A DNA stretch of 64,000 nucleotides from an uncultured Bdellovibrionales bacterium (GCA_964609855.1 CAZSTB010000006.1:365-64364), one strand, 5' to 3'. Positions 20,071 through 42,616 are shown, numbered from the stretch's first letter. Notes: a model not told the origin generated them from the letters alone. Translations and numbers: made by a program.

Positions 20071-20550
20071 ATGAAAAAATATTATAAAAAATTTAATAGC
20101 AATAGCGTTTTTTCAGCTAGCTTTAAGGTTGCATTAGTAGCTGTTTTTGCAGTTTTCTTGTTGACCTTGCCCCTTACTAGAATTGAAGCTGCTGAAAGTA
20201 TTGTTTCTTGTGGTAGATCAGATCAGAGCATGTGCACGCTGTGTGACATAATAAAGGGCATGAATATCATCATAAAATATTTGATGCAAATTTCTATTGG
20301 GGTGGCGCTTTTGGCTATAACTATCGGAGGTGTCATGTATATTATTTCTCCTGCTGATAAGGGAATGGTAGAAATGGGAAAAAAAGCGATGACCAACGCA
20401 TTTATCGGTTTCGCACTTATTTTTGCTGGATATTTGATTATAAATACAACTATTCAATATATCGGAACTAGACCTGGGATGGGCGTAAAAAGTGCGAATA
20501 GTACATTCCTATGGTCGAATTTTGATTGCAGCGCTCCTGCTGGAAAATAA
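20071..20550 (+). CDS. T4SS pilin-like (TrbC/VirB2-like) protein
   Basis: Signal peptide. C-terminal two-helix module with the loop motif MYIISPADKG...IGFALIFAGY. The same module is shared with paralogs at 39392-42616. Confidence 0.45.
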   Translation: MKKYYKKFNSNSVFSASFKVALVAVFAVFLLTLPLTRIEAAESIVSCGRSDQSMCTLCDIIKGMNIIIKYLMQISIGVALLAITIGGVMYIISPADKGMVEMGKKAMTNAFIGFALIFAGYLIINTTIQYIGTRPGMGVKSANSTFLWSNFDCSAPAGK

Positions 20551-20579
20551 TATAAAAACAGAATTTAATTTAAAAATTT

Positions 20580-21710
20580 ATGAAGAGTAAAAAGATTCTC
20601 GTATTAGCGGCACTTTATTTTTTAAGCGTATTTTTTGCCATAGATGATGCGAAAGCAGTCACAGAATGCACAAATAATCCGTCAATTTGTTCAGGTGGGA
20701 CCATATGCGCAGATGCTGGTTACGGACTCAAGACCTGTATTCAACCAAAAAATATTGGAAGCGCATGTAGTGAAAATGTAGAATGTGAGAGCGGAAATTG
20801 CGCAGATGCCGGTTATAATTTAAAAACATGTCAACTGGGAAGTGTTACTTTGCCTGCGAATGATTCCGATTTATGCAAAAGTTATAACATTAACTTCGCA
20901 TGTCGAAATGTTGATACTCTCTCTACATCAAGTGGTTGTCAAACTGGAAAATGTCCAGGAGCTGCCAATATTCAGTGTTGTCCCGAAAGCACTCCTCTTA
21001 AAGTGATTGCACCTATTGAAAATAGTTCGGAATGCTCAAATTTCAATGCCAATAATACTTGTACGAACATAAATACCTTGGCTAGCACCAGTGGTTGTCA
21101 AACTGGAAAATGTCCTGGAGCTGCTAATATTCAGTGTTGTCCTAAAAATGCTCCCTTGAAGCCAAATAATGGCTCAAATGAAACTGGTGGTTCAACAACC
21201 TTTACAAATCCACTCAAGTTTAATACTGTCGAATCTTTTCTGACCACTATCATGAGTGCGATCCAGCGGATCATTGTTTCGCTAGCGTTAGTGTTTATTG
21301 TAATCGGCGCATTGATGTATATATCTGCAGGGGCAAGTCCTGGTAATGCAGAAAAAGGAAAGGAGGCTATTACAATGGCTCTTGTTGGTTTAGCGATTGG
21401 AATTGCGGCGCCGTCCCTACTCAAAGAACTTGGATCTGTTTTAGGCTGGGGCGGTGTTGATAGTAGCGCCGTTGCTGGAGCTTTGACTTTATCACAGATT
21501 GCGATTAAGATTTTGAATTTCCTGTTAAGTATAACCGGTATTTTATCATTAATCATGTTGGTTATCGGAGCGATTATGTATCTTACTTCTGCAGGTGACT
21601 CGGATCGAATAAGTAAAGGCAAGGATATTTTCAAATATTCGTTGCTTGGTGTTATTATTGCAATGTCCGCAATGATTTTAGTACAGCAGATTGCGACGCT
21701 GTTTTCATAA
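20580..21710 (+). CDS. Cys-rich secreted protein with two tandem C-terminal T4SS pilin-like modules
   Basis: Repeats SSGCQTGKCPGAANIQCCP x2. Two modules with the xSAGxSx...KGK...IG motif. Confidence 0.45.
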   Translation: MKSKKILVLAALYFLSVFFAIDDAKAVTECTNNPSICSGGTICADAGYGLKTCIQPKNIGSACSENVECESGNCADAGYNLKTCQLGSVTLPANDSDLCKSYNINFACRNVDTLSTSSGCQTGKCPGAANIQCCPESTPLKVIAPIENSSECSNFNANNTCTNINTLASTSGCQTGKCPGAANIQCCPKNAPLKPNNGSNETGGSTTFTNPLKFNTVESFLTTIMSAIQRIIVSLALVFIVIGALMYISAGASPGNAEKGKEAITMALVGLAIGIAAPSLLKELGSVLGWGGVDSSAVAGALTLSQIAIKILNFLLSITGILSLIMLVIGAIMYLTSAGDSDRISKGKDIFKYSLLGVIIAMSAMILVQQIATLFS

Positions 21711-21801
21711 ATTGCATTTTTTTGAATACTTGAAAAAGTGAAGTATAATGAAGATGTGGAAATGAATTAGGGAAAAATATAAAAAATAAAAATATTCAAA
21801 A

Positions 21802-22251
21802 ATGTTAATCAGCGTTCCGCAATATATTGACGTAGAGGATAAAATCGTCGGCCCACTTACTGCAAAGCAATTGGGAATGTTTATCGGTCTTGGGGTAGCG
21901 ATGCTTGTTTTATGGAATGTTGTTCCTAAGCCGGTATTTTTTATCATAGCCTTGCCGATGTTGATCTTTGTAATCGCCCTGGCATTTTTTCGGCCATATG
22001 GACAACCATTGGGAAGTTTTTTACTTTTTGGACTTTTTTATTTCTTCAGACCAAAAGTTTATATTTGGAAAAGAATGCCACAAAATGTTATAAACATTCC
22101 GCAGAAAGAAAAAGTAGTAGATGTGAAAACGGAAGAAAAGCAAATTACGGCTCAGTCCTTGAGTGATTTGGCGCGGATGCTGGATAGTGAGGGTACTGCT
22201 CAAATTGAAGGAATAGAAGATATATTAAAAAAGGAACCTCGGAAGAAATAA
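21802..22251 (+). CDS. VirB3/PrgI-like small membrane protein
   Basis: 149 aa. GPLTAKQLGMFIGLG motif resembles VirB3 (xGLTRP). Two TM helices. Immediately upstream of the VirB4 ORFs. Confidence 0.4.
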   Translation: MLISVPQYIDVEDKIVGPLTAKQLGMFIGLGVAMLVLWNVVPKPVFFIIALPMLIFVIALAFFRPYGQPLGSFLLFGLFYFFRPKVYIWKRMPQNVINIPQKEKVVDVKTEEKQITAQSLSDLARMLDSEGTAQIEGIEDILKKEPRKK

Positions 22252-22295
22252 AAAAATCAGTTAATTGAGAGGGAGCAATATTTTTTTAATTAAGC

Positions 22296-23054
22296 TTGAG
22301 CGATCTCAAACCTTATTTAAAAAAGTTAAGCTTATTCTCAAATAAATTTTGTTTAAACAAAAAAATGGAATCATTGCATTCAAATAGTCTGACAAGTGGT
22401 AGTACTGGCGGCCTTAGCACTCAGAAATATGTGGACGTAGAAGAGGTCAGAGATGGTGTTATCATGCTGAAGAACGGGTCAATGCGCGGCGTTCTTATGG
22501 TCTCGTCTATTAATTTTGATCTAAAAGCCTCTGAAGAACAAGATTCAATAATCAGCCAATATCAAAATTTTCTCAACTCCTTGGATTTTCCAATTCAAAT
22601 TGTCATTAGTTCGAGAAAACTGAATGTAAATCCTTATTTGGATTATTTGAAGAAAAAAGAAGCTGAGCTTTCAAATGAACTCTTAATCTTGCAACTTGGA
22701 GAATATAGAAATTTTATAAAAAGCTTAGCAGAGGTATCAAGTATTATGTCTAAGTATTTTTATGTTGTAGTTCCGTTTTATCCGGTAGAAAATACGAAAT
22801 CAGGAATATTGGACAGATTATTCGGCTCAACAAATTCTCAAATGGCGGTCTCAAGGCGGCGCGCGCTGTTTGATACCTATAAGAACCAGCTTTGGCAAAG
22901 ACTCGATCATGTAAGTGCTGGACTTGGGAGTACTGGAGTAAAAGTGACTGCACTTAAAACGGAGGAACTGATTGAACTTCTATATAATTCCTATAATCCC
23001 TCCACGCAGAGTAATACAATTATTAAGGATACCGATAAAGTTGAGTTGCGATAG
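22296..23054 (+). CDS. VirB4/TrbE N-terminal domain-like protein (possible split-gene part)
   Basis: VEEVRDGVIMLKNGSMRGVLMVSSINFDLKASEEQD resembles the CagE/TrbE/VirB N-terminal region. Separated from the ATPase ORF by 99 nt containing stops. Confidence 0.4.
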   Translation: MSDLKPYLKKLSLFSNKFCLNKKMESLHSNSLTSGSTGGLSTQKYVDVEEVRDGVIMLKNGSMRGVLMVSSINFDLKASEEQDSIISQYQNFLNSLDFPIQIVISSRKLNVNPYLDYLKKKEAELSNELLILQLGEYRNFIKSLAEVSSIMSKYFYVVVPFYPVENTKSGILDRLFGSTNSQMAVSRRRALFDTYKNQLWQRLDHVSAGLGSTGVKVTALKTEELIELLYNSYNPSTQSNTIIKDTDKVELR

Positions 23055-23153
23055 TGCAGATTATGCAATTTAGCATAGGATAAGATTTTAAACTAATTCA
23101 ATATAGCTAAATAAATTTAAATTGACCAATGGTCATTTATATTAAATAACGGG

Positions 23154-24977
23154 ATGTTTGGACAAAATAAAACTCAAAAACCAAAAGTTGAAACAAACGC
23201 AGTTCTTCAAAGTGAAGCGCTATATCAACGCGGAGTTGCAACTATTAAGGACCTGATAGCACCATCAGCAATGAAAATAGGTGCTGATAATCTGCAGATC
23301 GGCGAAACTTATGCTAGGACTCTGTTTATTGTTGCTTATCCAAGATATCTTCATACGAATTGGTTTTCTCCGATTATAAACATCGATTTTTCAATGGACA
23401 CATCCATGTTTGTGCACCCAATTGATACCTCAGAGATTTTGAAAAACCTGAGAAAAAGCTCAACACAGGTGCAATCGCAAATCCACATGGAGGAACAATC
23501 AGGAAAAATTCGCGATCCGATTTTGGAAACTGCCTTGCAGGATATTGAAGATTTGCGGGATAAATTAATGCAGGGAACTGAAAAGTTCTTCCGGTTTGGT
23601 TTGTATATTACCATTTATGGAAAAACGCTGGAAGAATTAAACAAAGCGAATCAGCAGATAGAATCTATTTTAGAGGCCCAGTTGGTGTACCTTAAGCCAG
23701 CGGTATTAAAGGTGGAGCAGGGCTTTGCTTCAACGTTGCCATTAGCGAATGATGAACTGGATGTTGCAAACAATCTTAACACCGCACCGCTTTCAACAAC
23801 ATTTCCATTCGTTTCAGCTGATCTCTCATCAAATGAGGGAATTCTTTATGGAATAAACCGTCATAATAACAGCTTGATTTTGTTTGATCGTTTCAAAATG
23901 GAAAATGCCAACATGGTTGTTTTTGCGAAGTCTGGAGGAGGTAAAAGTTATACCGTAAAATTAGAGATTTTCCGGTCACTGATGGTTGGTACGAATGTAA
24001 TTGTAATCGATCCTGAAAATGAATATAAATATCTTTGCGAAACAGTCGGGGGAACTTTTATTAAGCTATCTTTAAATTCTGCATTTCACCTTAACCCATT
24101 TGATCTTCCTAATGTCGGTGAGGATGAAGATCCTGAGGATGTATTACGTTCAAATATCGCTAGTCTTATCGGCTTGCTGCATATCATGCTTGGGGCAGTT
24201 ACTCCTGAAGAGGATTCGATTTTAGATATCGCAATTCGCGAAACTTATGCAATGAGAGACATTACGCCACAAAGTAATTTCAAATCCTTTAATTCCAGCT
24301 CTTTCCCTACGATGTCTGACCTATACTCGGTAATCAGAAATTCCGAAGGAGGCGAATCCGTCGCAAAACGTTTAGAGAAATACACGGAAGGTATTTTCGC
24401 TGGAGTGCTTAATCACACGACAAATGTGCAAATTTCCAATCAACTTGTAGTTTTCAATATTCGCGATCTTGAAGAACAGCTGAGACCGATTGCGATGTAT
24501 ACTATCTTGCAATTTATTTGGAATGAGATGCGCTCAACCTTGAAAAAAAGAATCGTGGTTGTCGATGAAGCATGGGTAATGATGCAGAATGATGATGCTG
24601 CCTCATTCCTCTTTGGAATTGCAAAGCGTTGTCGTAAATATTACACAGGTCTAACAACTATCACTCAGGATATTGCCGACTTCATGAGCTCACGCTATGG
24701 AAAGCCTATTGTAACAAACTCCTCGCTGCAATTATTACTAAGGCAATCTCCTGCTGCTATTGAAACCATTTCGGATACTTTTTACCTTACAGAGCAGGAA
24801 AAGTTTCTTTTACTTGAAAGTAATGTTGGAGAAGGAATTTTGTTTGCCGGAGCTAAGCATGTGGCAATCAAAGTCATCGCTTCTTATGCAGAAGATCAGA
24901 TTATTACTTCAGATCCTCGCCAGCTTGTAGAGATAGAACAAGCCAAGAAAGAATTTGATGAAGAAGAAGGCAACTAG
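23154..24977 (+). CDS. virB4: VirB4/TraE-family T4SS ATPase (Gram-positive type)
   Basis: Walker A AKSGGGKS, Walker B VVVDEAW. YPRYL...W motif upstream of the ATPase core. Confidence 0.8.
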   Translation: MFGQNKTQKPKVETNAVLQSEALYQRGVATIKDLIAPSAMKIGADNLQIGETYARTLFIVAYPRYLHTNWFSPIINIDFSMDTSMFVHPIDTSEILKNLRKSSTQVQSQIHMEEQSGKIRDPILETALQDIEDLRDKLMQGTEKFFRFGLYITIYGKTLEELNKANQQIESILEAQLVYLKPAVLKVEQGFASTLPLANDELDVANNLNTAPLSTTFPFVSADLSSNEGILYGINRHNNSLILFDRFKMENANMVVFAKSGGGKSYTVKLEIFRSLMVGTNVIVIDPENEYKYLCETVGGTFIKLSLNSAFHLNPFDLPNVGEDEDPEDVLRSNIASLIGLLHIMLGAVTPEEDSILDIAIRETYAMRDITPQSNFKSFNSSSFPTMSDLYSVIRNSEGGESVAKRLEKYTEGIFAGVLNHTTNVQISNQLVVFNIRDLEEQLRPIAMYTILQFIWNEMRSTLKKRIVVVDEAWVMMQNDDAASFLFGIAKRCRKYYTGLTTITQDIADFMSSRYGKPIVTNSSLQLLLRQSPAAIETISDTFYLTEQEKFLLLESNVGEGILFAGAKHVAIKVIASYAEDQIITSDPRQLVEIEQAKKEFDEEEGN

Positions 24978-25000
24978 GGAATTAATTTCAATTCGCCAGC

Positions 25001-25037
25001 TGGCGAATCAATTTTCAATTTTCAATTTTCAATTTTC
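25001..25037. repeat. tandem heptamer AATTTTC x5
   Basis: CAATTTTCAATTTTCAATTTTCAATTTTCAAC directly after the virB4 stop and a short palindrome TTCGCCAGCTGGCGAA. Confidence 0.6.
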
Positions 25038-25055
25038 AACGAGTCCATTTATTAC

Positions 25056-25718
25056 TTGATTTGGTTGGGGAATAAATATCAAATTGAATTATTGAATTAT
25101 GTGGAATTGTGTTATTGCATGGGAAATGCGGCTGAAAAGTACGATGAAGAAAATTTAGGTGAAAAGATAACACACGCGAAATTGAATCCCGCCAGTTTTA
25201 ACGTGCCTAAAAATGGAAGTAGCGATAATTATGGAGCAGCTGAAAAAGATGCGGATAGTGGAGAAAGTGATTCGCAAAGACTCAATAATGCTAGACAAAA
25301 AAATAACGTTAGTAAATCTCTCAATGATGCGAAAGAATTAGCAAAAAACGCAACCCCGATGGGTGCAATCTCTCTGTTGGGTCATATACATTTTTTGGGC
25401 GATATGCCATACGTGGCTGCCTTGGGCGCTGCAATTTTAAAAGATATTTTAGACTTGGTTTTCGTGGGATCATTGCCAGGGTTAGGGACCGTAATTACAA
25501 TTCTCTGCTCGGTTTTTATCGCAATGATGATGATGCTTGTAGGTTCAGGCGGAAAGCGAAAGGCGGTAAGCGGAATGTTAAAAAAATTTGGAACACTCTT
25601 GGCAGGGACGTTGGCAGAAGGAGTCATTCCTGGAATTAATTTTTTACCGATGGAATCGATAATGGTTGCATCTGTCTATGTAATGACGCTTACAGAAAGA
25701 AAAAATGAAGGCGACTGA
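25056..25718 (+). CDS. hypothetical membrane protein (possible T4SS accessory)
   Basis: Soluble N-terminal part. C-terminal hydrophobic helices. Confidence 0.4.
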   Translation: MIWLGNKYQIELLNYVELCYCMGNAAEKYDEENLGEKITHAKLNPASFNVPKNGSSDNYGAAEKDADSGESDSQRLNNARQKNNVSKSLNDAKELAKNATPMGAISLLGHIHFLGDMPYVAALGAAILKDILDLVFVGSLPGLGTVITILCSVFIAMMMMLVGSGGKRKAVSGMLKKFGTLLAGTLAEGVIPGINFLPMESIMVASVYVMTLTERKNEGD

Positions 25719-27337: not shown

Positions 27338-27344
27338 ACAAAAA

Positions 27345-29522: not shown

Positions 29523-29544
29523 CAGCTATTCTTAAATAGCATTA

Positions 29545-33358: not shown

Positions 33359-34435
33359 TTGCTTCATCTTGTTCGTAATTATTCAGCTTTTGCTGTTGTC
33401 GTTAGTAGTGCCCTGCTTGTTAGTGCCACCAATGTAGCTTCATCCGGAAAGGGTGCTGGAAGCTTCCTTTTTGGTTATTGGGATTCATCAGCTCAAGCCT
33501 CGGCTGCACGTAGCAAGATTAGCGGACAAGTTGATAAGAAAAATGATTTAGCTTTAGTGCCACTTTCTAAGGCAAGCACAGCAGTTGATCCTGGAGCTAA
33601 AGAAGAGGAAGTAACTCAAAATATTATTCAAGGTCAGGGGATCATGGCTGCGGCTGGTGGAGCTAGCCCGATGAAAGATCCTGAACAAGATGGTGGGGTT
33701 AAAATGTATATCGTTCAATCAGGCGATACGCTTGGATCGATTGCTGCGAAAAATGAAGTTTCCATCAACACGATTTTGTGGGCCAACGATATTGATAATG
33801 TCGATTCGATCATGCCTGGCGACACTTTGTTTATTTTGCCTGTGTCTGGAATTAAATATGTCATAAAGGATGGCGACAAGATAGATGCCATCGCTGCTAA
33901 GTTTAAATCAGAAAAGGATAAGATTATCGCCTTTAATGATCTTCCGGCAAACGGAGATTTGGAGGCGGGAAAAGAGATTGTTATTCCTGACGGACAGGGA
34001 GAAGCTCCGAAACCTCAAGTGCCTGCAGCTAGTCCATCGACGCTTATTGAAAAAAGACAGTATGCAAACGCCACTGGTGGAACTCCTGAAGTTTCTACGG
34101 GAAAAATATTAGGCGGAAAACCTGGAACCGGACATAGGTTCCCATATGGATATTGCACGTGGTATGTTGCGCAAAAAAGACATGTCCCTTGGGGTGGAAA
34201 TGCTGGAACATGGCTATATCATGCAAAGGCTAGTGGATATGCAACCGGAAGAACACCTAAAGTCGGATCGATCATGGTTACCACTGAAAATCGCTACTAC
34301 GGCCACGTCGCTTATGTGGAAAAAGTTTCCGGAGATACGATAACAGTGAGCGAGATGAATTATGCCGGTTTTGCAAAAGTTTCTCGTCGCACACTTTCAG
34401 CAAAGAGTCGCGCAATCAAGGGATTTGTATATTAG
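33359..34435 (+). CDS. LysM-LysM-CHAP domain peptidoglycan hydrolase (secreted)
   Basis: Two LysM repeats (YIVQSGDTLGSIA..., YVIKDGDKIDAIA...). C-terminal CHAP with a Cys (CTWYV) and a His (YGHVAYV). TTG start per the ORF track. Confidence 0.75.
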   Translation: MLHLVRNYSAFAVVVSSALLVSATNVASSGKGAGSFLFGYWDSSAQASAARSKISGQVDKKNDLALVPLSKASTAVDPGAKEEEVTQNIIQGQGIMAAAGGASPMKDPEQDGGVKMYIVQSGDTLGSIAAKNEVSINTILWANDIDNVDSIMPGDTLFILPVSGIKYVIKDGDKIDAIAAKFKSEKDKIIAFNDLPANGDLEAGKEIVIPDGQGEAPKPQVPAASPSTLIEKRQYANATGGTPEVSTGKILGGKPGTGHRFPYGYCTWYVAQKRHVPWGGNAGTWLYHAKASGYATGRTPKVGSIMVTTENRYYGHVAYVEKVSGDTITVSEMNYAGFAKVSRRTLSAKSRAIKGFVY

Positions 34436-34454
34436 AAAGTGCTTGATATGAATA

Positions 34455-34487
34455 GAAAAAACTCAGTTATAATAGCTGAGTTTTTTT
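34455..34487 (+). terminator. rho-independent terminator
   Basis: AAAAAACTCAG-loop-CTGAGTTTTTTT. Confidence 0.6.
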
Positions 34488-34592
34488 CTTTTAAATAAGT
34501 TCTTCAAATATTATTTGCTACGGTAAAAAGGTTTCTATAAATATCGAAAATATGCTATAATTTTTTCATAGGAGATAACATAGAAATCCCGA

Positions 34593-36704
34593 ATGAATTG
34601 GATTTTCAAAAACAAAAACAAAAGAGCAAAGACGCTGCTTGTCGTCTTGTTTTTGGCGTTTGGATTCTCTTTTGTTAGTTTCGATGATGCGAAAGCGGCA
34701 GGTATTTGCGAAAGCGGCAGTACTGAAAAAACTTGCGAATGCTTTAATGGAAGTGCTTCATTAAGTTTTTTTCCGGCCGGACACAATATAAGTGATTTTA
34801 ATGCCCAGTTGACTACAGGTTTTTGTCATCAAGAATCTTGCATGCAATACTGCATGTTTAAATTTCCAGCTACGACTGCAGTTAAATATGACGGGGGAAC
34901 ATTTGGAACAAGCTCAATAAAAAATAGTTCAAGCGCTGTTATATCCGCACCCTCATTATCAGAGCAAGTTTGCGGCGGAACATTGAGCATGTTTAACCCT
35001 TCAACATGGCTGCAATGTGCGCTAATCATGGTTTTGCAACTCGTCGGCTATCTGTTCGCAATAGCGGCGACACTTTTTGCATGGGCAATTGATCCCTCAA
35101 ACGTTTCCGGGCCTAATGGTATTTTGGAAAAACAAGCCATCAAGGACGTGTGGATTATGGTTCGCGATCTTTTGAATATGACCTTTATTTTGATCTTACT
35201 TTTCTCGGCTTTCTGCACAATTTTTCAAATCGATAACTGGGGTCTTAAAAAAGTTTGGCTCAATATTTTGATAAACGCCCTCTTGGTAAATTTTTCCTTT
35301 CCAATTGCGCGTTTTATTATCGATATTTCAAACGTAACTTTTTATTATTTTGTAAAGCATTTGTTCGCATCTACTGGAACCTCAACTGTTACTGGTTCAA
35401 CAATCTTTTCAAGTTTTGCATCCACATCTGGAATCGGCGATTTGTTGCAGCCTGATAAATATGCGGACCATGCAATTCCATATCTGATTGCATCGATAAT
35501 TTTCGTTTTTATTTTCGGAATGACGCTGCTTATTATCGGAGCATTATTCATTGTTCGCCTTGTCGCGCTGGCAATGCTTATCATGTTTTCCCCGATCGGT
35601 TTTGTGGGTTATATTTTTCCTGAAAGTGCCAGTTATGCCAACAAGTGGTGGAAAAATCTTTTTAGCTACTCTTTCTTTGCGCCGATTATGATTTTTGTTA
35701 TGGCGATTTCGCTGCGAATCATGCAAGCCTTGCAGGCGGAGAATATGAGTTCGATGCAAGCGATCAGTGGAGTTAACGCCGTTTCAGATCAACAAGGTTG
35801 GGTGGCAAATGCAGCATTTTACACAATTCCGATTATCATTCTCTGGGGTGGAATGGGAATTGCAAAATCCTCAGGCATTGCCGGAGCGGACACCGTCGTC
35901 AATTCTGTGAAAAAAGGAGGAAAATGGGCTGCCACAAATCTTTCTGGTTACGGCTATATGAAAAAGAATTATGATGCTTACGCTGGAGCCAGAAAGAAAC
36001 GCGTAGAGGAAAAAGATAAGAAACGCTGGGGCGGCAAATTTGGCGATGGCGTAAATGATAAGCAAGATAAGCTATTGGCCAAGCTAGGCTCTGAAGCTGC
36101 GATGAAGCGATACAATAAGAGAAAAGAGACAGGAAATAAGGATGATATTAAAGATGGCGTTGAGGGAGCAGAAAGTAGAACTGCTGATGAATTAAAATCA
36201 CAAATCAAGACTTCTATGAACTCCACAACGCCACTGAGCGATAAGGAAAAAATGGATTATGCTATAAATGCTAAGTTGGCATTAAATCGTGGAGCTAAAT
36301 ATGAATCTGGATTTGAAGAAGATCTTAAGGCTGACATGAAAAACAATTTAACAACTGATTCTAGATTCGCCACATTGCATGCAAGTACTGTGGATCTCGC
36401 AAGGGCAGAGATGAATTTCAATAATCATCCAAAAAATCCTCCAACTGCAACTGGAACTAGTGCAAGCGCGCAGCGAAATCATCAAATTCAAATGGCGAAA
36501 TGGACTGCAGATAGAACCTTGCTGAAAGAAGCACATGAAAATGCAAAGAAGAAAGTCGAGTCAGATGAGAAAAAGATCATTCAAAGCGAAAAAACAAAGC
36601 ATCTCGACAACTTAAGAAAAGCAATTAAAGATGCCGAGGAGGTTGGAAAGATAAATAAACCGGCTCCAACTCCTGCACCTCCTGGCCCGACTCCAACACC
36701 ATAA
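34593..36704 (+). CDS. TrbL/VirB6-like polytopic T4SS membrane protein with Cys-rich N-terminal ectodomain and Pro-rich C-terminal tail
   Basis: Signal peptide plus Cys-rich region, then 6-7 TM helices. Charged Lys/Glu-rich tail ending PAPTPAPPGPTPTP. Promoter GAAAATATGCTATAAT at 34541-34557. Confidence 0.5.
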   Translation: MNWIFKNKNKRAKTLLVVLFLAFGFSFVSFDDAKAAGICESGSTEKTCECFNGSASLSFFPAGHNISDFNAQLTTGFCHQESCMQYCMFKFPATTAVKYDGGTFGTSSIKNSSSAVISAPSLSEQVCGGTLSMFNPSTWLQCALIMVLQLVGYLFAIAATLFAWAIDPSNVSGPNGILEKQAIKDVWIMVRDLLNMTFILILLFSAFCTIFQIDNWGLKKVWLNILINALLVNFSFPIARFIIDISNVTFYYFVKHLFASTGTSTVTGSTIFSSFASTSGIGDLLQPDKYADHAIPYLIASIIFVFIFGMTLLIIGALFIVRLVALAMLIMFSPIGFVGYIFPESASYANKWWKNLFSYSFFAPIMIFVMAISLRIMQALQAENMSSMQAISGVNAVSDQQGWVANAAFYTIPIIILWGGMGIAKSSGIAGADTVVNSVKKGGKWAATNLSGYGYMKKNYDAYAGARKKRVEEKDKKRWGGKFGDGVNDKQDKLLAKLGSEAAMKRYNKRKETGNKDDIKDGVEGAESRTADELKSQIKTSMNSTTPLSDKEKMDYAINAKLALNRGAKYESGFEEDLKADMKNNLTTDSRFATLHASTVDLARAEMNFNNHPKNPPTATGTSASAQRNHQIQMAKWTADRTLLKEAHENAKKKVESDEKKIIQSEKTKHLDNLRKAIKDAEEVGKINKPAPTPAPPGPTPTP

Positions 36705-36717
36705 TAAAAAAACAAAA

Positions 36718-37125
36718 ATGAGTAATAATTTGAGCGCATTGGAAGAATTTGATGCGCAAAGAAAAATTGAGATGCCGCATCTTTTGTATTCGGCAACTGA
36801 CCTGGTAGCGAAAAAAAATATCGCCTATGTTGTGTTGGCAAAAAAAGAAAAAGAGATACTGCTCATTAGTCCAGCTGGCTTCGGCGAGGCAGCTGTTGTC
36901 GCAGGCTTCAGCGAAAAAAATATTGAACATTTTGCCAAGTTTGCATCAAAGGAATGCAAAGAAAGAATGTTTGAAGTAATCAAGAATGATCTGCTTGCTA
37001 AGGATATTTGGGAAATCGCAGAGGCGATGGACGATGATTTAGGCAGAGATTCCAAGTCGCATCGCCAAAGAGTAAGAAAAGTGTTGCAATATATTTATAA
37101 TAATCAAACAGTTTTTCATTTTTGA
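36718..37125 (+). CDS. hypothetical protein
   Basis: 135 aa, no motif. Tightly packed after the virB6-like gene. Confidence 0.4.
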   Translation: MSNNLSALEEFDAQRKIEMPHLLYSATDLVAKKNIAYVVLAKKEKEILLISPAGFGEAAVVAGFSEKNIEHFAKFASKECKERMFEVIKNDLLAKDIWEIAEAMDDDLGRDSKSHRQRVRKVLQYIYNNQTVFHF

Positions 37126-39119
37126 TATCTATGGACTTTAATTTTGCGCAAAACAATTCAGCATCTCAAAAAACTGGTTCCTTGGAGCAGTCTTTTGTCG
37201 GCGTTGTGGAGAATGAAAAACAACGACTGGCGACTGGATATGCAGCTGTTGTTGAAGAAATTCAAGCAAAAAGAAACAAGGAAAATGCAGGTGCGCAAAT
37301 ATTTCCCGCTTCAGTTGCATCTTTACATCCTGATGTTGTTGATTTTTTACTAAATTTTGATTTGGTTTCAGTTTATGATGATATCGCCAAACAAAACAAC
37401 TTGGATGAGAAAGGCCGCAGTAGCTTGCCGCAAATAGTTTGGAAGCTTGTTAGAGAAGGAAATTGGAACGCCTTGGATGAAACGTTAGAAGCTAAAATTC
37501 CCTTGGTGCATTCCGTACATGTAAATGTCGCTAACCTTTTGCAGCAAAATATTTTAGCAAAAGTGAAAGCTCTGTCTGAAAAACCGGTTTCCAGAAAAGG
37601 TATTATCAGCGAAGCTACGAAGAAAATCGTAAGCATTCCGCTGAAGAAAGCTTTGCTTGATTATCCGAAACTTGGAGAGCAAAATGTGACAATCAGTCAG
37701 ATTGAGCTGAAATATTTTCCTACGCCTGTCAGGCCTTCGATTAAGAATTGGATTACAGACTTTCATGATCAGATGGGGGCAATTAAACATTCTCCAATTG
37801 ATCGCGGAAACTATTTGTTCCACAGCGAAAATGGAAAAAAACTTACCTCTCTGGAGCGGCAGAAGCTTTCAATGATTTTGAAAAGTTTAGATGAAGATAC
37901 GAATCTGGATATTGATGCTGAAGCGCAAGTCCTTATATTTGAAATAGAAAAACCGCAAATAAATCCAGTGGCGAATGATCGATATAAAACTGTGGTGAGT
38001 GATAATTTTACTGATGTGCAGAAAAACGTTCCAGCTGAACAGTTAATAAGTCGACCAGTATTGGATTTTGGACAAAGGCAGCAAACTATTGAGCAGGAAA
38101 AGCAGTCTGAAATAGAAAATAGTGAGGAATTACTAAAATCCCGCGAAGAAAAATTGAATAATCTTGGTAAATTTTTTGGCGAAAAAGCTGGCTTGCAGCC
38201 AGAAGTAAAAACGCCTGCGGATGATAACTTAGAACAGGTAGCTAAACCGCAAGTCAAGCCGTTGTCGTCAGAGCAGGCTACAGGCGGCCTTAAGGCTGCG
38301 TTAAATTTCTTTAAATTAAATAAAGTTAAAAATTCCAAATCGGAAGAAAGAGAAAACCAAGTTCCAACTGCGGAAATTATGCAAAAGGATTTATTCAAGT
38401 TGCCAACCTCGAAGCCGCAATTGGGGACTGAAGAATATAATGTAAGAAAAAGTTTTGTTGAGCAGAGTAATGTGGAAGAAAAAAAAGCTCAAGAGCTGCC
38501 GTTTCAAAGCGATATGATTTCAAATGTTAACAATGTAAAATTTTCAAACAGCGACAATATACATTTTTCATCGCCTCAGAAACTGCCTGCAGAGGAAAAA
38601 TTCGCCGCGCCTGCGAAAATGAGCGCCCCTAATTTTGCCTCCAACAGTATGGCATACGTTAGGCCTACAGCAACTTTCAAAGTTCAAGATGTTCCAGCTG
38701 TAGAGCCAGAAATTGTCACCCCTGCGCCAACTTTAGCAAGTCCGCAAATTAAAGCTGATTACGAGATGGCATCAAATTCAAGGATAAGTTCCACCTTGTC
38801 TCCCTCAACTACTATAAGCCGTCCAATTCCAGCTCCAATTCCAACTCCTATATCGGCGCCAATTCAGCAAGTAACTTCAATGACTGAACCAGTAGTTTCT
38901 CCAGTGCCAGTATTTTCTCCGATCGTTGATCTTAAGCGAGACTCAGCGCCAGTCCCCGTTGAAACAACTCAGCAAATTAGCAGCGAAGAGCATTCCATTA
39001 AAAAGGCGACTCCTGCAATCGCAAGAAATCCATTCAGAATCGTTCCAAGAAATTACTCAGAGGGAATTGAAGATGAAAAAATTTCAGCTCCAAAAAATGT
39101 TGTTAATCTAAAAGAATAA
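37122..39119 (+). CDS. hypothetical large protein with low-complexity Pro/Ser-rich C-terminus
   Basis: 665 aa. ATGA overlap with the previous gene. No TM and no catalytic motif. Confidence 0.5.
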   Translation: MISMDFNFAQNNSASQKTGSLEQSFVGVVENEKQRLATGYAAVVEEIQAKRNKENAGAQIFPASVASLHPDVVDFLLNFDLVSVYDDIAKQNNLDEKGRSSLPQIVWKLVREGNWNALDETLEAKIPLVHSVHVNVANLLQQNILAKVKALSEKPVSRKGIISEATKKIVSIPLKKALLDYPKLGEQNVTISQIELKYFPTPVRPSIKNWITDFHDQMGAIKHSPIDRGNYLFHSENGKKLTSLERQKLSMILKSLDEDTNLDIDAEAQVLIFEIEKPQINPVANDRYKTVVSDNFTDVQKNVPAEQLISRPVLDFGQRQQTIEQEKQSEIENSEELLKSREEKLNNLGKFFGEKAGLQPEVKTPADDNLEQVAKPQVKPLSSEQATGGLKAALNFFKLNKVKNSKSEERENQVPTAEIMQKDLFKLPTSKPQLGTEEYNVRKSFVEQSNVEEKKAQELPFQSDMISNVNNVKFSNSDNIHFSSPQKLPAEEKFAAPAKMSAPNFASNSMAYVRPTATFKVQDVPAVEPEIVTPAPTLASPQIKADYEMASNSRISSTLSPSTTISRPIPAPIPTPISAPIQQVTSMTEPVVSPVPVFSPIVDLKRDSAPVPVETTQQISSEEHSIKKATPAIARNPFRIVPRNYSEGIEDEKISAPKNVVNLKE

Positions 39120-39297
39120 AAGGTATTGTATCCCAGGGCAGAGCTCTGGACTCCCTTGGGCCCACGCAGCCCGTCTCGCCCGAGGCTTTGCCGAGGGGGA
39201 CAGAGCTGTGAGGTGCCTGCCCTGTCTACCGATAGGCAGGCGGTAGGCAGGGAAATGGAATATTAATTTTCATTTCGCTCGCTTCGTTTGATAATAA
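39113..39297 (-). repeat. structured intergenic repeat / candidate ncRNA, diverged copy C (GC-rich core)
   Basis: Minus-strand 5' module AAACGAAGCGAGCGAAATGAAAAT... and 3' end ...AATACCTTTTATT match copies A and B. The 120-nt core is about 65% GC. Confidence 0.55.
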
Positions 39298-39391
39298 AAC
39301 AATATCTTTGATTTGAGATTTTTTATCAAGTGTTTGCAAGGGAGAAAATCGACTGCTTGAGCGAGAAAGGTGCTTTAAGTTAAATATAAGA

Positions 39392-39676
39392 TTGGAAAGT
39401 ATGCTTGAATTCATAAATATAGCACAGGCCGGAATTATTAGTGATGCACCCAGTGTTTCGAGTCTGGGAATTAAGATTTTAAATTTTTTGTTGTCAGTAG
39501 TTGGATTTTTTGCTATAATTTCTTTAGTGTTGGCAGGGATAAAATACTTTTTTGCACTTGGTGATAAGAAGCAAATTGAAAATGCAAAAAATGCCGCGAC
39601 GGCTGCCGTTTGGGGAATTGCGCTTGCGATGGGAGGAATGATCCTGATAAGGTTTATTGGACAATTTTTTCAATAG
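39392..39676 (+). CDS. T4SS pilin-like (TrbC/VirB2-like) small protein
   Basis: 94 aa. Two-helix module with KYFFALGDKKQIENAKN...IG motif. Confidence 0.45.
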   Translation: MESMLEFINIAQAGIISDAPSVSSLGIKILNFLLSVVGFFAIISLVLAGIKYFFALGDKKQIENAKNAATAAVWGIALAMGGMILIRFIGQFFQ

Positions 39677-39754
39677 CACTAGCGAATGATAATATAACGA
39701 GATTTTGGGAAAAAAATATATAAAAAATAAAAACTAGGAAAGGAGGTGTAATTT

Positions 39755-40108
39755 ATGAACATTGTTAAAAAATTTGTATACGGAATCGCTTCAATTATCG
39801 TGGTGTTGCCGACAACCGTGGGAGCTCAACTTCAGACACCTGAAGGAACAGGTCTTCCAGCGGGAAGTGTGATAAATATCATAACCAATGGAATGAATTA
39901 TCTTTTGATTCTCGTTGGTGTTCTTGGAGTTATCGGATTCGTTATCGCTGGTATCATTTATTTGACTGCAGCTGGCGACGAAGATCAGATAGAAAGAGGA
40001 AAGAGAACTATGATCAATTCTATCATTGGAATCATCGTAGCGCTTTTGGGAATCATTGTTTTGACAGCCGTAAAAAGTATGCTTGGGGGAACTGATAAAA
40101 CTTTCTAG
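39755..40108 (+). CDS. T4SS pilin-like small protein
   Basis: Strong RBS AGGAAAGGAGGT. Motif IYLTAAGDEDQIERGKR...IIG. Confidence 0.5.
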   Translation: MNIVKKFVYGIASIIVVLPTTVGAQLQTPEGTGLPAGSVINIITNGMNYLLILVGVLGVIGFVIAGIIYLTAAGDEDQIERGKRTMINSIIGIIVALLGIIVLTAVKSMLGGTDKTF

Positions 40109-40129
40109 TTCTGCAAGTTACATTTTGTA

Positions 40130-40166
40130 CAAGCAAAAAACAACCTTAAGGGTTGTTTTTTGCTTG
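40130..40166 (+). terminator. rho-independent terminator
   Basis: CAAGCAAAAAACAACC-TTAA-GGGTTGTTTTTTGCTTG. Confidence 0.6.
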
Positions 40167-40328
40167 CGTAAAAATTATAAGACCTATATTTATATATACA
40201 CTTTTACTGAAAATATGCTATAATGAATATGAAAATATCTTAAAAATTTATTCTTCCGTTGTTTTTTGATCAGCTACGCTTGCTATTGAATTAGAAAGAT
40301 AGCTTTTGAAAAAAAATAAAAAATAAAA

Positions 40329-40784
40329 ATGAAAGTACAAAATAAGATTCTGTCACTAATTGTTTTCTCATTTGTCTTTTTTGCGCAAGTCCTGCCAGTA
40401 CTTGCTGGTCCAGAATGGAATGCATCAGTCGGGCCAGATGGAAATGTGGGTTTTCAAATAGGTACACAACAGGGTCTTAATGCTCTCAATGGAAATAATG
40501 CTGACGCAGCAATGAATAATCCATATGGCTTGCCGGGTGGAAGTATTTTGGATATAATTTCAAACCTCTTGTTTTGGCTGCTGGCTATTTTTTCCGTACT
40601 AGGAATCATTGGCTTTTTGATTTCTGGAATCTTGTATCTTCTGGCTGGTGCGGATGAGGATAATGCAAAAAAGGGAAAAGAGGGCATGAAAGCTTCAATT
40701 ATTGGAATCATTGTCGGTCTTTCAGGTTATGTTATCATGCAGGCAGTTGGAATATTTTTACGCGGAGATACGACAATGTTCTAA
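40329..40784 (+). CDS. T4SS pilin-like protein
   Basis: Signal peptide. Motif LYLLAGADEDNAKKGKE...IIG. Promoter GAAAATATGCTATAAT at 40210-40226. Confidence 0.5.
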   Translation: MKVQNKILSLIVFSFVFFAQVLPVLAGPEWNASVGPDGNVGFQIGTQQGLNALNGNNADAAMNNPYGLPGGSILDIISNLLFWLLAIFSVLGIIGFLISGILYLLAGADEDNAKKGKEGMKASIIGIIVGLSGYVIMQAVGIFLRGDTTMF

Positions 40785-40840
40785 AGTAGATTGATTAGGT
40801 TTGATTTAGATAAATACAGTAATCAGTTTTTATAACAAAA

Positions 40841-41710
40841 ATGAAAAATAAAAGCGCATATTTATTTGTTGGCATTTTCCTATTCTCAGGCTTACTTTTT
40901 TTTGGAGAAAGTGAAAAAGCTAACGCTCAAGCATTTTCTGGATCATATTCATACTCTGAATGCAAAAGTGATGGTGGAAGTGAGGCGTATTGCAGTCAAT
41001 TTAGCGGTGCACCTCAATCTTCCACAAATATCAGCAATGCATCCGCAGGAAGTTGCCGTTTCAATAGTGATTGCGGAAATAATTTTACGTGTTATCAGGA
41101 TACCTGTATGGATGATGCAACCTATCAGGAAAATGTTTCTTGGATTAATCGTACTGGTAACGCCGTGTCGCAGGTACTAACTCCTGGTGGGTCAATATTT
41201 GATGATGGTACGAATTCTACCTCTTCTTCATCAGGTGGGGAGCTAACGATGATTGCTTATGATATTAATGGTAACCCTGTTTTTGATCCTGACCAATATG
41301 CTGGAGCAGGAAATACGAATTCTAATATTGTTAACAATAACAACAACAGTAATAATACTGGATCCGGCAATACTAACGGAATTCAAACAGCAAAATGCAG
41401 CGGGGCAAATTTTACGGAAATCGGGGGAATCTGTTTTCCTGTAGACACAGGCATGCCGAATCCAGAATTCGGAATAGTCCAGATTATTGGCAATCTCTTT
41501 TCCTGGTTAATGGGTTTATTTTCCGTGCTTTCCTTGGCGGCTTTTGTGATATCCGGAATTCAGTATGTCACATCCGCTGGAGATTCTGGCCAAGCAGAGA
41601 CTGCTAAAAAGAACGCCCTAAATGCTGTTTTAGGAATTATTGTGGGTTTCTCTGGTTTTGTTATTGTTCAAGCTGTGAATTATGCACTAGAGGGGCAAGG
41701 TTTCTTTTAA
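40841..41710 (+). CDS. Cys-rich secreted protein fused to C-terminal T4SS pilin-like module
   Basis: Motif QYVTSAGDSGQAETAKKNA...GII. N-terminal Cys-rich region and an Asn-rich tract. Confidence 0.5.
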   Translation: MKNKSAYLFVGIFLFSGLLFFGESEKANAQAFSGSYSYSECKSDGGSEAYCSQFSGAPQSSTNISNASAGSCRFNSDCGNNFTCYQDTCMDDATYQENVSWINRTGNAVSQVLTPGGSIFDDGTNSTSSSSGGELTMIAYDINGNPVFDPDQYAGAGNTNSNIVNNNNNSNNTGSGNTNGIQTAKCSGANFTEIGGICFPVDTGMPNPEFGIVQIIGNLFSWLMGLFSVLSLAAFVISGIQYVTSAGDSGQAETAKKNALNAVLGIIVGFSGFVIVQAVNYALEGQGFF

Positions 41711-41734
41711 GATAGTTTTTATTGGAAGAATTTT

Positions 41735-42616
41735 ATGAAATTAAAAAAACTTTTATTTCTTAGCTTATTTCTTAGCTTATTTTTTGTTGGAAATGGCGTA
41801 GAAGCCGTAACTGAGTGCGAAACCGCCGGCGGAATTTGCAGTATTTTTTCGAATATGACTTGCGAATCCAGGCATTTATTGGGAAAGGAAGATATGGTAA
41901 CCACAAATCTCTCGTGCAACAATAGTGCAGCAAGTTGTTGCATGCCAAAAGTTGCCACTCCTGCAATAACAGCACCAGTTACAACACCAACCACACCAAC
42001 TACAACTCCAGTTACAACCCCAGTTACAGCCCCAACCATTAACACTCCAACTACAAATACCCCAACTGTTAATCCTCCAGTTACGGCTAATGCAAATGCT
42101 TGTTCAGATCTTGAGTATTTAGGTCGCGATGGAAATTGTTATCCCAAGGAGAATCTAAATATAGAAAATGGCAATTTATGTTCCGATATTGAGTATCTAG
42201 GTCTCGACGGAAATTGCTACCCAAGGGAAAACTTAAACATTGTAAATGAAAATAATAACACTTTCCCCGGTGTGCCTAGTGGCGGCGCTCAGACTGCCAA
42301 ATGCGGCAATGGCTTCTATGAGAAAGGAAATGTTTGTTTTCCAACACAAACGGGACTGCCAAGTCCAGAAAACGGTGTAGTTCAAATTCTCAGTAACCTT
42401 TTTTCCTGGTTAATGGGTTTATTTACCATACTTTCGTTGGCAGCTTTCACGGTTTCTGGCATTCAATATGTAATTTCTGCTGGAGATTCAGGTTTGGCTG
42501 AAACTGCCAAGAAAAACGCAGTCAATTCAATTATTGGAATTGCAGTGGGACTTTCTGGATTTATCATCGTACGGGCCATAAATGCGGCACTTACTGGGCA
42601 GGGTTTTTTCTTTTAG
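41735..42616 (+). CDS. Cys-rich, Thr/Pro-linker secreted protein fused to C-terminal T4SS pilin-like module (paralog of 40841-41710)
   Basis: Internal tandem duplication CSDLEYLGRDGNCYPKENLNIENGN / CSDIEYLGLDGNCYPRENLNIVNEN. PTTPTTTPVTTPV linker. Motif QYVISAGDSGLAETAKKNA. Confidence 0.5.
   Translation: MKLKKLLFLSLFLSLFFVGNGVEAVTECETAGGICSIFSNMTCESRHLLGKEDMVTTNLSCNNSAASCCMPKVATPAITAPVTTPTTPTTTPVTTPVTAPTINTPTTNTPTVNPPVTANANACSDLEYLGRDGNCYPKENLNIENGNLCSDIEYLGLDGNCYPRENLNIVNENNNTFPGVPSGGAQTAKCGNGFYEKGNVCFPTQTGLPSPENGVVQILSNLFSWLMGLFTILSLAAFTVSGIQYVISAGDSGLAETAKKNAVNSIIGIAVGLSGFIIVRAINAALTGQGFFF

What the first reader, a model, noticed from the sequence alone, without database searches (positions are those of the whole stretch)
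20071..42616. Two-part Gram-positive/ComB-like type IV secretion-like locus without relaxase, coupling protein or VirB11
Part 1 (20071-25718) encodes two VirB2/TrbC-like pilin genes, a VirB3-like gene, VirB4, and a membrane protein. Part 2 (33359-42616) encodes a LysM-CHAP peptidoglycan hydrolase, a TrbL/VirB6-like polytopic protein, two unknown proteins (135 and 665 aa), and five more pilin-like genes. The hydrolase is a functional analog of VirB1/PrgK/TcpG. No VirD4, relaxase, or VirB11 is visible in the window. This argues for a minimal non-conjugative T4SS-like apparatus, used for DNA uptake (as in the Helicobacter ComB system) or cell-cell attachment, rather than a conjugative element. 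Both operon promoters share GAAAATATGCTATAAT (34541-34557 and 40210-40226).
Basis: partly seen in the sequence, partly recalled or inferred. Interest (0 to 1): 0.75.

Follow-up and report, generated by a model that had tools for sequence, protein, structure and literature searches.

The report
Patescibacteria chromosomal type IV secretion system
This is the chromosomal, pilus-encoding, relaxase-less type IV secretion system typical of ultrasmall Patescibacteria (here a Moranbacteria genome); it is real and biologically important, but it was already described in 2023-2025 papers.

Summary
All ORFs exist at the stated coordinates. HMMs confirm seven VirB2-like pilin genes (eight PF18895 domains), PrgI/VirB3, VirB4, a LysM-CHAP hydrolase and a TrbL/VirB6 protein. 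No T4CP, relaxase or VirB11 occurs anywhere in the 64 kb.

A TrsD-like ORF (22365-23054) encodes the detached N-terminal part of VirB4.

The two parts are one system. In more distant Moranbacteria the same genes form a single cluster: LysM-CHAP, VirB6, u135, u665, PrgI, TrsD, VirB4, membrane protein.

The 135-aa and 665-aa unknowns are conserved cytoplasmic proteins. Their models are confident but have no VirB8/VirB10/PrgL-like or other recognisable fold.

The shared 16-mer is exact, with slightly shifted coordinates. It is a generic extended -10 promoter that also precedes unrelated genes.

The organism is a Candidatus Moranbacteria (Patescibacteria). This system is already published, including its TrsD, pilin arrays, missing relaxase, nearby KsgA and essentiality for epibiotic growth (PMC10633639, PMC12102498, PMC12857230). 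The ComB-like DNA-uptake idea is also in print (PMC11665869). Cargo and direction remain unknown.

Verdict: correct reading, known system, modest interest.

The parts
20071..20550 (+). VirB2-like pilin 1 (159 aa): Sec signal peptide followed by a two-helix pilin domain
   Evidence: PF18895 1e-6, 29.1 bits, above cut-off. TM segments. Syntenic in close relatives.
20580..21710 (+). Pilin 2 (376 aa): signal peptide, Cys-rich repeated ectodomain (20 Cys), then two tandem pilin domains
   Evidence: PF18895 4.7e-17 with 2 stretches. Weak hit to the Mbov_0395 pilin-like family. Cys positions and domain alignment. Internal DNA repeat 20914-20995 / 21073-21154.
21802..22251 (+). PrgI / VirB3-like small membrane protein (149 aa)
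   Evidence: PF12666 PrgI 1.5e-8, 35.5 bits against a cut-off of 27. Lies next to TrsD-VirB4 in all relatives.
22365..23054 (+). TrsD-like protein (229 aa; the ORF is open from TTG at 22296). It is the detached N-terminal module of VirB4.
   Evidence: NCBIfam VirB4_plasma positions 104-231 (1.4e-10), TrsD (3.2e-7), CD1110 positions 3-76. It is a separate gene of about 225-231 aa in 65 relatives.
23154..24977 (+). VirB4 ATPase (607 aa), with Walker A (GGGKS) and Walker B (VVVDEAW) motifs intact
   Evidence: NCBIfam conju_CD1110 374 bits, above the 325 cut-off, covering profile positions 178-734. Pfam P-loop_TraG 1e-28. PDB 4ag5 VirB4 2e-48. 71-93% identity in 80 Moranbacteria/Patescibacteria genomes.
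25119..25718 (+). Conserved membrane protein (199 aa; the ORF is open from 25056). It has a soluble N-terminal part and C-terminal TM helices. No family assignment.
   Evidence: No Pfam or NCBIfam hit. TM segments. Follows VirB4 in 62 related loci. A 199-aa form at 100% identity is on record.
33359..34435 (+). Membrane-anchored peptidoglycan hydrolase with two LysM domains and a CHAP domain (a functional analogue of VirB1)
   Evidence: CHAP 4.4e-19 and LysM 7.7e-19. Lies directly upstream of VirB6 in most related loci that extend that far, in both layouts; some contiguous-layout loci have other genes there instead.
34455..34487 (+). Terminator hairpin after the hydrolase gene
   Evidence: 15-bp stem followed by a T run.
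34546..34561 (+). Extended -10 promoter GAAAATATGCTATAAT in front of virB6
   Evidence: Exact match. Sequence context.
34593..36704 (+). Extended VirB6/TrbL-like polytopic membrane protein (703 aa). It has a Cys-rich N-terminal ectodomain and a C-terminal tail of about 250 aa that is charged and Pro-rich.
   Evidence: TrbL 3.3e-5, 24.2 bits, just below the 25.9 cut-off. Twelve of 31 orthologues hit TrbL, best 8.5e-8. At least 6 TM segments.
36718..37125 (+). u135: conserved, all-helical cytoplasmic protein of unknown function
37131..39119 (+). u665 (662 aa; the ORF is open from 37122). It is a conserved cytoplasmic accessory protein. The N-terminal ~280 aa are folded. The tail is long and disordered and carries conserved short motifs.
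39401..39676 (+). Pilin 3 (about 91 aa; the ORF is open from 39392), without a signal peptide
   Evidence: PF18895 7.4e-6, 26.4 bits against a cut-off of 26.6. Aligns with the other pilin domains.
39755..40108 (+). Pilin 4 (117 aa)
   Evidence: PF18895 5.2e-9.
40135..40161 (+). Terminator-like hairpin followed by a T run after pilin 4
   Evidence: Read directly from the sequence. The pattern scan did not flag it.
40209..40224 (+). Second copy of the extended -10 promoter GAAAATATGCTATAAT, in front of pilins 5-7
   Evidence: Exact match. The promoter scan scores it 10/12 with a TG.
40329..40784 (+). Pilin 5 (151 aa)
   Evidence: PF18895 9.9e-8.
40841..41710 (+). Pilin 6 (289 aa), with a Cys-rich and Asn-rich ectodomain
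   Evidence: PF18895 2.8e-9. Pilin domain 72% identical to pilin 7.
41735..42616 (+). Pilin 7 (293 aa), with a Cys-rich and Thr/Pro-rich ectodomain
   Evidence: PF18895 5e-7. Paralogue of pilin 6.
42671..42692 (+). Terminator after the pilin array
   Evidence: 9-bp stem followed by a T run.

Best explanation
The two parts are the chromosomal type IV secretion system characteristic of Patescibacteria (CPR), here in a Candidatus Moranbacteria genome. It descends from monoderm (MPF_FATA) conjugation machinery but has lost the conjugation-specific parts.

Shown here:
- A split VirB4 ATPase (TrsD plus VirB4).
- A VirB3-like PrgI protein.
- An extended VirB6.
- A LysM-CHAP wall hydrolase.
- Seven VirB2-like pilin genes carrying eight pilin domains. 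Three of these genes have large Cys-rich ectodomains.
- Three lineage-specific conserved proteins: a membrane protein after VirB4, and the cytoplasmic u135 and u665.

Inferred mechanism:
- TrsD/VirB4 docks on the VirB3-VirB6 membrane platform.
- It uses ATP to pull Sec-inserted pilins out of the membrane and polymerise them.
- The filament passes through a gap in the wall cut by the CHAP hydrolase.
- The diverse pilins, some carrying ectodomains, let the filament bind the envelope of a host bacterium.
- The channel and pilus then serve the epibiotic lifestyle, either as an attachment organelle or as a conduit for macromolecules.

No coupling protein or relaxase lies nearby. The one activity the gene set clearly supports is therefore VirB4-driven pilus biogenesis and host contact. 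Cargo and direction of transport are not established.
For: Gene identities.

One system: in Moranbacteria with VirB4 at 71-76% identity, the order is LysM-CHAP, VirB6, (u135), u665, PrgI, TrsD, VirB4, membrane protein, all contiguous. In close relatives the same split layout as the window is conserved.

Fixed chromosomal trait:
- VirB4 is 71-93% identical across 80 species-level genomes. The record titles that give an informative taxon all read Moranbacteria, Parcubacteria or Patescibacteria; the rest carry generic or apparently mislabelled titles.
- The flanks are IF-2, ComM, KsgA, PcrA, Xer, NusA, Tig and ClpP.
- GC content is even.
- No att-like repeats bound the region.

No T4CP, relaxase or VirB11 in the 64 kb.

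Likely functional:
- Walker motifs in VirB4 and the catalytic Cys/His in CHAP are intact (sequence).
- Sec signal peptides are present on six of the seven pilins and on VirB6 (sequence).

Literature:
- The same component set (TrsD, PrgI, VirB6, arrays of 2-11 pilins, LysM-bearing VirB1 analogues, no relaxase, KsgA nearby) is described across Patescibacteria (PMC12102498).
- The T4SS genes and the pilin array are essential for epibiotic growth of Southlakia epibionticum (PMC10633639; PMC12857230).
- Tubular structures that may be T4SS pili were seen at a parasite-host interface (bioRxiv 10.64898/2026.06.21.733656).
Against: No experiment bears on this organism, which is an uncultured MAG lineage.

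Pilus formation by PF18895 proteins has not been demonstrated in any Patescibacterium.

The rest of the genome is not available. A T4CP or relaxase elsewhere cannot be excluded. The 2025 survey found many VirD4 homologues far from virB4.

No VirB8-like subunit was found, so the channel architecture is incomplete by known standards.

The window's own VirB6 and its third pilin score just below the Pfam cut-offs.

The pilin array is absent or short in some relatives (L087, L123, L124, L117). The downstream array is therefore dispensable or replaceable in at least some lineages.
Confidence: 0.8

Rival explanations
1. ComB-like nucleic-acid import machine. The system takes up DNA, or host RNA/DNA as a nucleotide source, from the environment or the host, as the Helicobacter ComB T4SS does. 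It does not export anything.
For: No T4CP, relaxase or VirB11 in the window, as in ComB.

A ComM-type helicase gene lies next to part 1 and belongs to the block upstream of virB6 in relatives.

Patescibacteria cannot make nucleotides. Competence is dispensable in Southlakia while the T4SS is essential, and the T4SS has been proposed as the alternative route (PMC11665869). Host-RNA feeding has been reported for a cultivated representative.
Against: No homologues of the ComB7-10 (VirB7-10) core are present.

Transformation in Southlakia depends on ComEC, with type IV pili implicated in competence.

ComM-KsgA adjacency looks like conserved housekeeping synteny. KsgA near virB4 is common across the phylum.

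No nuclease or DNA-binding component was identified in the cluster.
Confidence: 0.15
2. Ordinary integrative conjugative element or its remnant, with the relaxase and coupling protein lying just outside the window.
For: VirB4 is of the CD1110 (CTn2 ICE) type. A tyrosine recombinase gene (31926-32846) and a tRNA-Ser (17718-17808) lie in the region.
Against: The region between the tRNA and the recombinase holds essential housekeeping genes (ComM, KsgA, PcrA).

The recombinase is Xer-like and keeps its position in dozens of genomes.

No bounding direct repeats. GC content is uniform.

VirB4 identity falls in step with that of the flanking housekeeping genes across 80 genomes.

Relaxases are rare in Patescibacteria and are seldom near virB4.
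Confidence: 0.03
3. Effector-translocating T4SS. It injects proteins into the host bacterium to manipulate or lyse it.
For: Published speculation for Saccharibacteria. Some effector T4SSs work without a T4CP, such as Ptl and Brucella VirB. u665 has a long disordered tail with conserved terminal motifs. It could be a substrate or an adaptor.
Against: No identifiable effector, chaperone or T4CP lies in the cluster. u665 has no signal peptide or toxin domain, and no structural analogue was found for it.
Confidence: 0.15
4. Part 2 is unrelated to part 1. It would be a separate membrane-protein and surface-protein locus that happens to lie nearby.
For: The parts are separated by 7.6 kb of housekeeping genes. 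They have separate promoters and terminators.
Against: The two gene sets are directly adjacent in one cluster in many more distant relatives. The same pilin family occurs in both parts.
Confidence: 0.02

Closest known systems
Patescibacteria-clade T4SS (Southlakia epibionticum SEML1_0006-0019; survey of Quinonero-Coronel et al. 2025, PMC12102498)
   Same: It shares the MPF_FATA-type VirB4, an adjacent TrsD, PrgI/VirB3, VirB6 and an array of divergent PF18895 VirB2-like pilins. It also has a cell-wall hydrolase with LysM, no relaxase or T4CP nearby, and a chromosomal location beside KsgA and other housekeeping genes.
   Different: The cluster is split into two blocks by ComM, KsgA, PcrA and Xer in this sub-lineage. 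The hydrolase is LysM-CHAP, whereas Southlakia has a peptidase plus lysozyme. The papers read here do not describe the lineage-specific accessory proteins (u135, u665, 199-aa membrane protein) or the pilins with Cys-rich ectodomains and a tandem double pilin domain.
Monoderm conjugative MPF_FATA T4SSs (pGO1 TrsC/D/E, pCF10 PrgH/I/J/K/L, CTn2 CD1110)
   Same: The VirB4 belongs to the CD1110 family. A TrsD-like separate N-terminal module, a PrgI-type VirB3, a VirB6-like polytopic protein and a CHAP-containing hydrolase are all present.
   Different: There is no relaxase, no T4CP and no recognisable VirB8-like PrgL/TcpC. VirB2-like pilins are present, which Gram-positive systems lack. The locus is not on a mobile element.
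Helicobacter pylori ComB DNA-uptake T4SS
   Same: It lacks VirD4, VirB11 and a relaxase. It retains VirB2-, VirB3-, VirB4- and VirB6-like parts (ComB composition is from my own knowledge).
   Different: ComB is a diderm MPF_T-type system with a ComB7-10 outer-membrane core, for which nothing was found here. The resemblance is one of reduction, not of ancestry.
Mycoplasma ICE T4SS (Mbov_0395 pilin-like, Mbov_0397 VirB4)
   Same: TrsD and VirB4 hit the VirB4_plasma model. Two pilins weakly hit the Mbov_0395 pilin-like model. Both hosts are wall-reduced or monoderm with small genomes.
   Different: All scores are far below the equivalog cut-offs. The mycoplasma system is on a mobile ICE with DNA-processing genes.

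Membership tests
Patescibacteria-clade T4SS | VirB4 of MPF_FATA affinity | tested here: met
   conju_CD1110 equivalog at 374 bits, above the 325 cut-off. PDB 4ag5 VirB4 2e-48.
Patescibacteria-clade T4SS | VirB4 falls in the monophyletic Patescibacteria clade | not tested
   No tree was built. Indirect support: among the 80 best genome hits (71-93% identity), every record title that names an informative taxon names Patescibacteria; many others are generic or apparently mislabelled, such as 'uncultured Bdellovibrionales'.
Patescibacteria-clade T4SS | TrsD homologue next to virB4 | tested here: met
   ORF 22365-23054 hits TrsD at 3.2e-7 and VirB4 N-terminal regions at 1.4e-10. It is a separate gene in 65 relatives.
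Patescibacteria-clade T4SS | VirB3 (PrgI) and VirB6 homologues near virB4 | tested here: met
   PrgI scores above the cut-off. VirB6 scores 24.2 against 25.9 bits in the window, but 12 of 31 orthologues hit TrbL, best 8.5e-8.
Patescibacteria-clade T4SS | Array of divergent VirB2-like (PF18895) pilin genes | tested here: met
   Seven genes and eight domains, at 17-72% pairwise identity.
Patescibacteria-clade T4SS | No relaxase associated; chromosomal housekeeping context | tested here: met
   No MOB, T4CP or VirB11 domains in the window. Synteny is conserved. The rest of the genome was not available.
Conjugative MPF_FATA T4SS / ICE | Relaxase and type IV coupling protein | tested here: not met
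   None found in the 64 kb. Cannot be tested for the rest of the genome.
Conjugative MPF_FATA T4SS / ICE | VirB8-like (NTF2-fold) subunit such as PrgL, TraM or TcpC | tested here: not met
Conjugative MPF_FATA T4SS / ICE | Mobile-element boundaries (integrase with att repeats, atypical composition, patchy distribution) | tested here: not met
   The Xer-like recombinase is positionally conserved. There are no bounding repeats. GC content is uniform at 0.36-0.41. The locus is present in all 80 related genomes retrieved.
ComB-type DNA-uptake T4SS | VirB7-VirB10 (ComB7-10) envelope core | tested here: not met
   No Pfam or NCBIfam hit to the VirB8, VirB9 or VirB10 families in any ORF of the locus.
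ComB-type DNA-uptake T4SS | Required for natural transformation | not testable with these tools
   Needs genetics. In Southlakia, transformation depends on ComEC, with type IV pili also implicated in competence.

The most novel reading that the evidence does not exclude
The cytoplasmic u135/u665 pair may replace the missing coupling protein. u665 belongs to a large unannotated family. It has a folded N-terminal domain without structural relatives and a long disordered tail bearing three conserved short motifs. In this reading it acts as a new kind of substrate-recruitment or gating module for a VirB4-only T4SS. The pilins carrying Cys-rich ectodomains would act as host-specific tip adhesins. 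The machine would import host nucleic acids or other macromolecules, which would make it a feeding organelle rather than a secretion system.
Probability: 0.1. Interest if true: 0.8.

Novelty: already known. Interest (0 to 1): 0.3.

Why it matters
Patescibacteria make up a large share of bacterial diversity and live attached to other microbes. Their T4SS is the first one reported to be essential for the survival of its bearer (PMC12857230), yet its cargo and direction are unknown. This window adds a clean Moranbacteria example. It also shows, by comparative synteny, which unannotated genes travel with the core: u665, u135 and the membrane protein after VirB4. These are concrete candidates for the missing VirB8-like or coupling functions. 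The window does not change the published picture.

Tried and rejected

2. A system-specific shared regulatory motif. The 16-mer is an extended -10 promoter, and near-identical copies precede unrelated genes. Rejected as a specific regulator.

3. VirB4 split by a frameshift or pseudogene. TrsD is a separate gene of constant length in 65 relatives. Rejected.

4. ICE boundaries. I looked at the tRNA-Ser, the Xer recombinase and direct repeats, and found nothing.

5. PDB sequence searches. TrsD, VirB6 alone and the VirB6 profile all gave no hits.

6. afdb50 fold search. The library was unavailable.

7. Exact look-up of the 199-aa membrane protein's contig. Not on record.

8. Hidden T4CP or relaxase among the Pfam-less ORFs of the window, at a relaxed E-value. 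None found.

Full report
**What is in the sequence.**

- Pilin genes at 20071-20550 and 20580-21710. Both hit PF18895 T4SS_pilin, and the second carries two pilin domains.
- A PrgI/VirB3-like gene at 21802-22251, PF12666 above the gathering score.
- VirB4 at 23154-24977.
- A small membrane protein at 25056-25718.

The unlisted ORF matches the N-terminal region of VirB4 models and the TrsD family. The 607-aa VirB4 matches the CD1110 equivalog only from profile position 178 onward, at 374 bits against a cut-off of 325. VirB4 is therefore encoded in two pieces, as TrsD/TrsE are in pGO1. This is not a frameshift: TrsD is a separate gene of 225-231 aa in 65 related loci.

Part 2 holds:
- A membrane-anchored hydrolase with two LysM domains and a CHAP domain (33359-34435).
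- A 703-aa polytopic protein with a TrbL/VirB6 match just under the Pfam cut-off. At family level the assignment is supported, because 12 of 31 orthologues hit TrbL, best 8.5e-8.
- Two proteins without any family (36718-37125 and 37122-39119).
- Five more PF18895 pilin genes.

The eight pilin domains are 17-72% identical to each other.

**Absence of conjugation parts.** All remaining ORFs of 100 aa or more in the window, apart from shadow ORFs inside longer genes, were scanned against Pfam, including the Pfam-less ones at relaxed thresholds. They are housekeeping genes: IF-2, ComM/YifB, a G5-DPBB wall enzyme, KsgA, PcrA/UvrD, a Xer-type recombinase, NusA, trigger factor, ClpP, RNase Y and others. 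No VirD4/TcpA-type coupling protein, relaxase or VirB11 was found. GC content is even across the region, and no att-like direct repeats bound it.

**The promoter claim.** GAAAATATGCTATAAT occurs exactly twice, at 34546-34561 and 40209-40224. Each copy follows a terminator hairpin and precedes an operon, virB6 and pilins 5-7 respectively. The motif is an extended -10 element (TGnTATAAT). Two-mismatch versions sit upstream of an unrelated phosphoesterase gene (12600) and of an unknown gene (54522). It is therefore a strong generic promoter, not a system-specific signal.

**Organism and conservation.** VirB4 has relatives at 71-93% identity in 80 species-level genomes. Wherever the record title gives an informative taxon, it reads Candidatus Moranbacteria/Moraniibacteriota, Parcubacteria or Patescibacteria; a large share carry generic titles or the apparently mislabelled 'uncultured Bdellovibrionales'. 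Exact copies of window proteins occur in assemblies of SRR446575 and SRR446577 and on a 65.6-kb NCBI contig.

**The two parts are one system.** I mapped all window proteins onto 80 genome loci and 39 metagenome loci. Two layouts appear.
- Close relatives (VirB4 at 82% identity or more) share the window's split layout. It runs SBP, pilin 1, pilin 2, PrgI, TrsD, VirB4, membrane protein. Then come ComM, G5-DPBB, KsgA, PcrA and Xer. Then come LysM-CHAP, VirB6, (u135), u665, the pilins and NusA.
- More distant Moranbacteria (VirB4 at 68-76% identity) have a single contiguous cluster: (Xer, LysM-CHAP), VirB6, (u135), u665, PrgI, TrsD, VirB4, membrane protein.

This rearrangement-proof association shows that part 2 belongs with part 1. 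It also shows that u665 and the post-VirB4 membrane protein are conserved components. The downstream pilin array varies from zero to five genes among relatives.

**The unknown proteins.** u135 and u665 have no signal peptide or TM segment.

Neither protein is VirB8-, VirB10- or PrgL-like. No VirB8 analogue was identified.

**Comparison with the literature.** The system is published.
- Wang et al. 2023 (PMC10633639) described a Gram-positive-like T4SS with an essential pilin series and no relaxase or coupling protein in Southlakia epibionticum. They showed by Tn-seq that it is essential for epibiotic growth.
- Quinonero-Coronel et al. 2025 (PMC12102498) surveyed 2,474 virB4 genes across Patescibacteria. 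They reported the MPF_FATA affinity of VirB4, TrsD as the commonest partner, PrgI-type VirB3 and VirB6. They also reported VirB2 arrays of 2-11 genes averaging 25% identity, VirB1 analogues with LysM (associated with virB4 in Paceibacteria), rare relaxases, T4CPs encoded far away, and KsgA among the frequent neighbours.
- A 2025 review (PMC12857230) presents these systems as unique among monoderms.
- A 2024 perspective (PMC11665869) already raises the ComB-like DNA-uptake idea.
- A 2026 preprint reports tubular structures that may be T4SS pili at a parasite-host interface.

**Mechanism.** Shown: gene content, intact ATPase and hydrolase motifs, Sec signals on the pilins and on VirB6, conserved chromosomal inheritance, and the unity of the two parts.

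Inferred: TrsD/VirB4 on a VirB3-VirB6 platform polymerises VirB2-like pilins through a hydrolase-cut gap in the wall. The varied pilins, three of which carry Cys-rich ectodomains, contact the host cell. With no coupling protein nearby, pilus biogenesis and host contact is the best-supported activity. Whether anything is transported, and in which direction, is open.

Rivals are graded in the report sections: ComB-like import, effector export, ICE remnant, and two unrelated loci. The last two are contradicted by the synteny and composition data.

**Verdict.** However, the locus is an instance of an already described, phylum-wide system. Three points here are not covered in the papers read:
- The evidence that the split cluster is a derived arrangement of a contiguous one.
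- The delineation of the u665/u135/membrane-protein accessory set.
- The pilin-ectodomain fusions.

These are incremental. Interest is modest.

Noticed in passing
window 20580-21710 (also 40841-41710 and 41735-42616): Three 'pilins' are much larger than a VirB2. Each has a signal peptide, a Cys-rich ectodomain (20, 8 and 12 Cys; internally repeated, for example DNA repeat 20914-20995 / 21073-21154 at 82% identity) and then the pilin domain. The first carries two pilin domains in tandem. They may be pilin-adhesin fusions that stand in for a VirB5-like tip protein.
   Followed up: partly
window 37131-39119: The u665 family combines a confidently folded N-terminal region that has no structural relatives with a long disordered tail. 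The tail varies in length but keeps three short motifs: FSSxQKLPxEK (aa 482), P[FY]RIxP, and a C-terminal GNxVDL[KR]. The family is large (1,593 representative clusters) and has no Pfam model.
   Followed up: partly
window 18581-20053: An orphan SBP_bac_1 solute-binding lipoprotein gene ends 18 nt before the first pilin gene. It stays next to the pilins in close relatives. No ABC permease or ATPase gene is adjacent.
   Followed up: no
window 25811-27337 and 27300-28310: A ComM/YifB Mg-chelatase-like helicase gene and a bitopic DUF348-G5-DPBB (RlpA-like) wall enzyme gene sit between the two T4SS parts. The same ComM, G5-DPBB, KsgA block lies upstream of virB6 in the contiguous layout too. This is probably housekeeping synteny, but a functional link to wall remodelling or DNA processing is not excluded.
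   Followed up: partly
L103 17990-18970 and 15127-17919: In a relative with the contiguous layout, a protein fuses a PF18895 pilin-like segment to an SLT lytic transglycosylase domain. It sits beside a 930-aa protein with no family, just downstream of the VirB4 cluster.
   Followed up: no
window 17813-17899: A short run of A/T-rich direct repeats (TAATCATTTAAACAT-like) lies immediately beside tRNA-Ser (17718-17808), upstream of the methyltransferase gene.
   Followed up: no
window 28348-28710: A gene for a 23S rRNA intervening-sequence protein (PF05635) lies between the wall-enzyme gene and ksgA. It is present at this position in only some relatives.
   Followed up: no
window 52080-53687 and 54585-56021: Two large ORFs (535 and 478 aa) have no Pfam match. 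The second is preceded at 54522 by a near-copy of the same extended -10 promoter seen in the T4SS locus.
   Followed up: no
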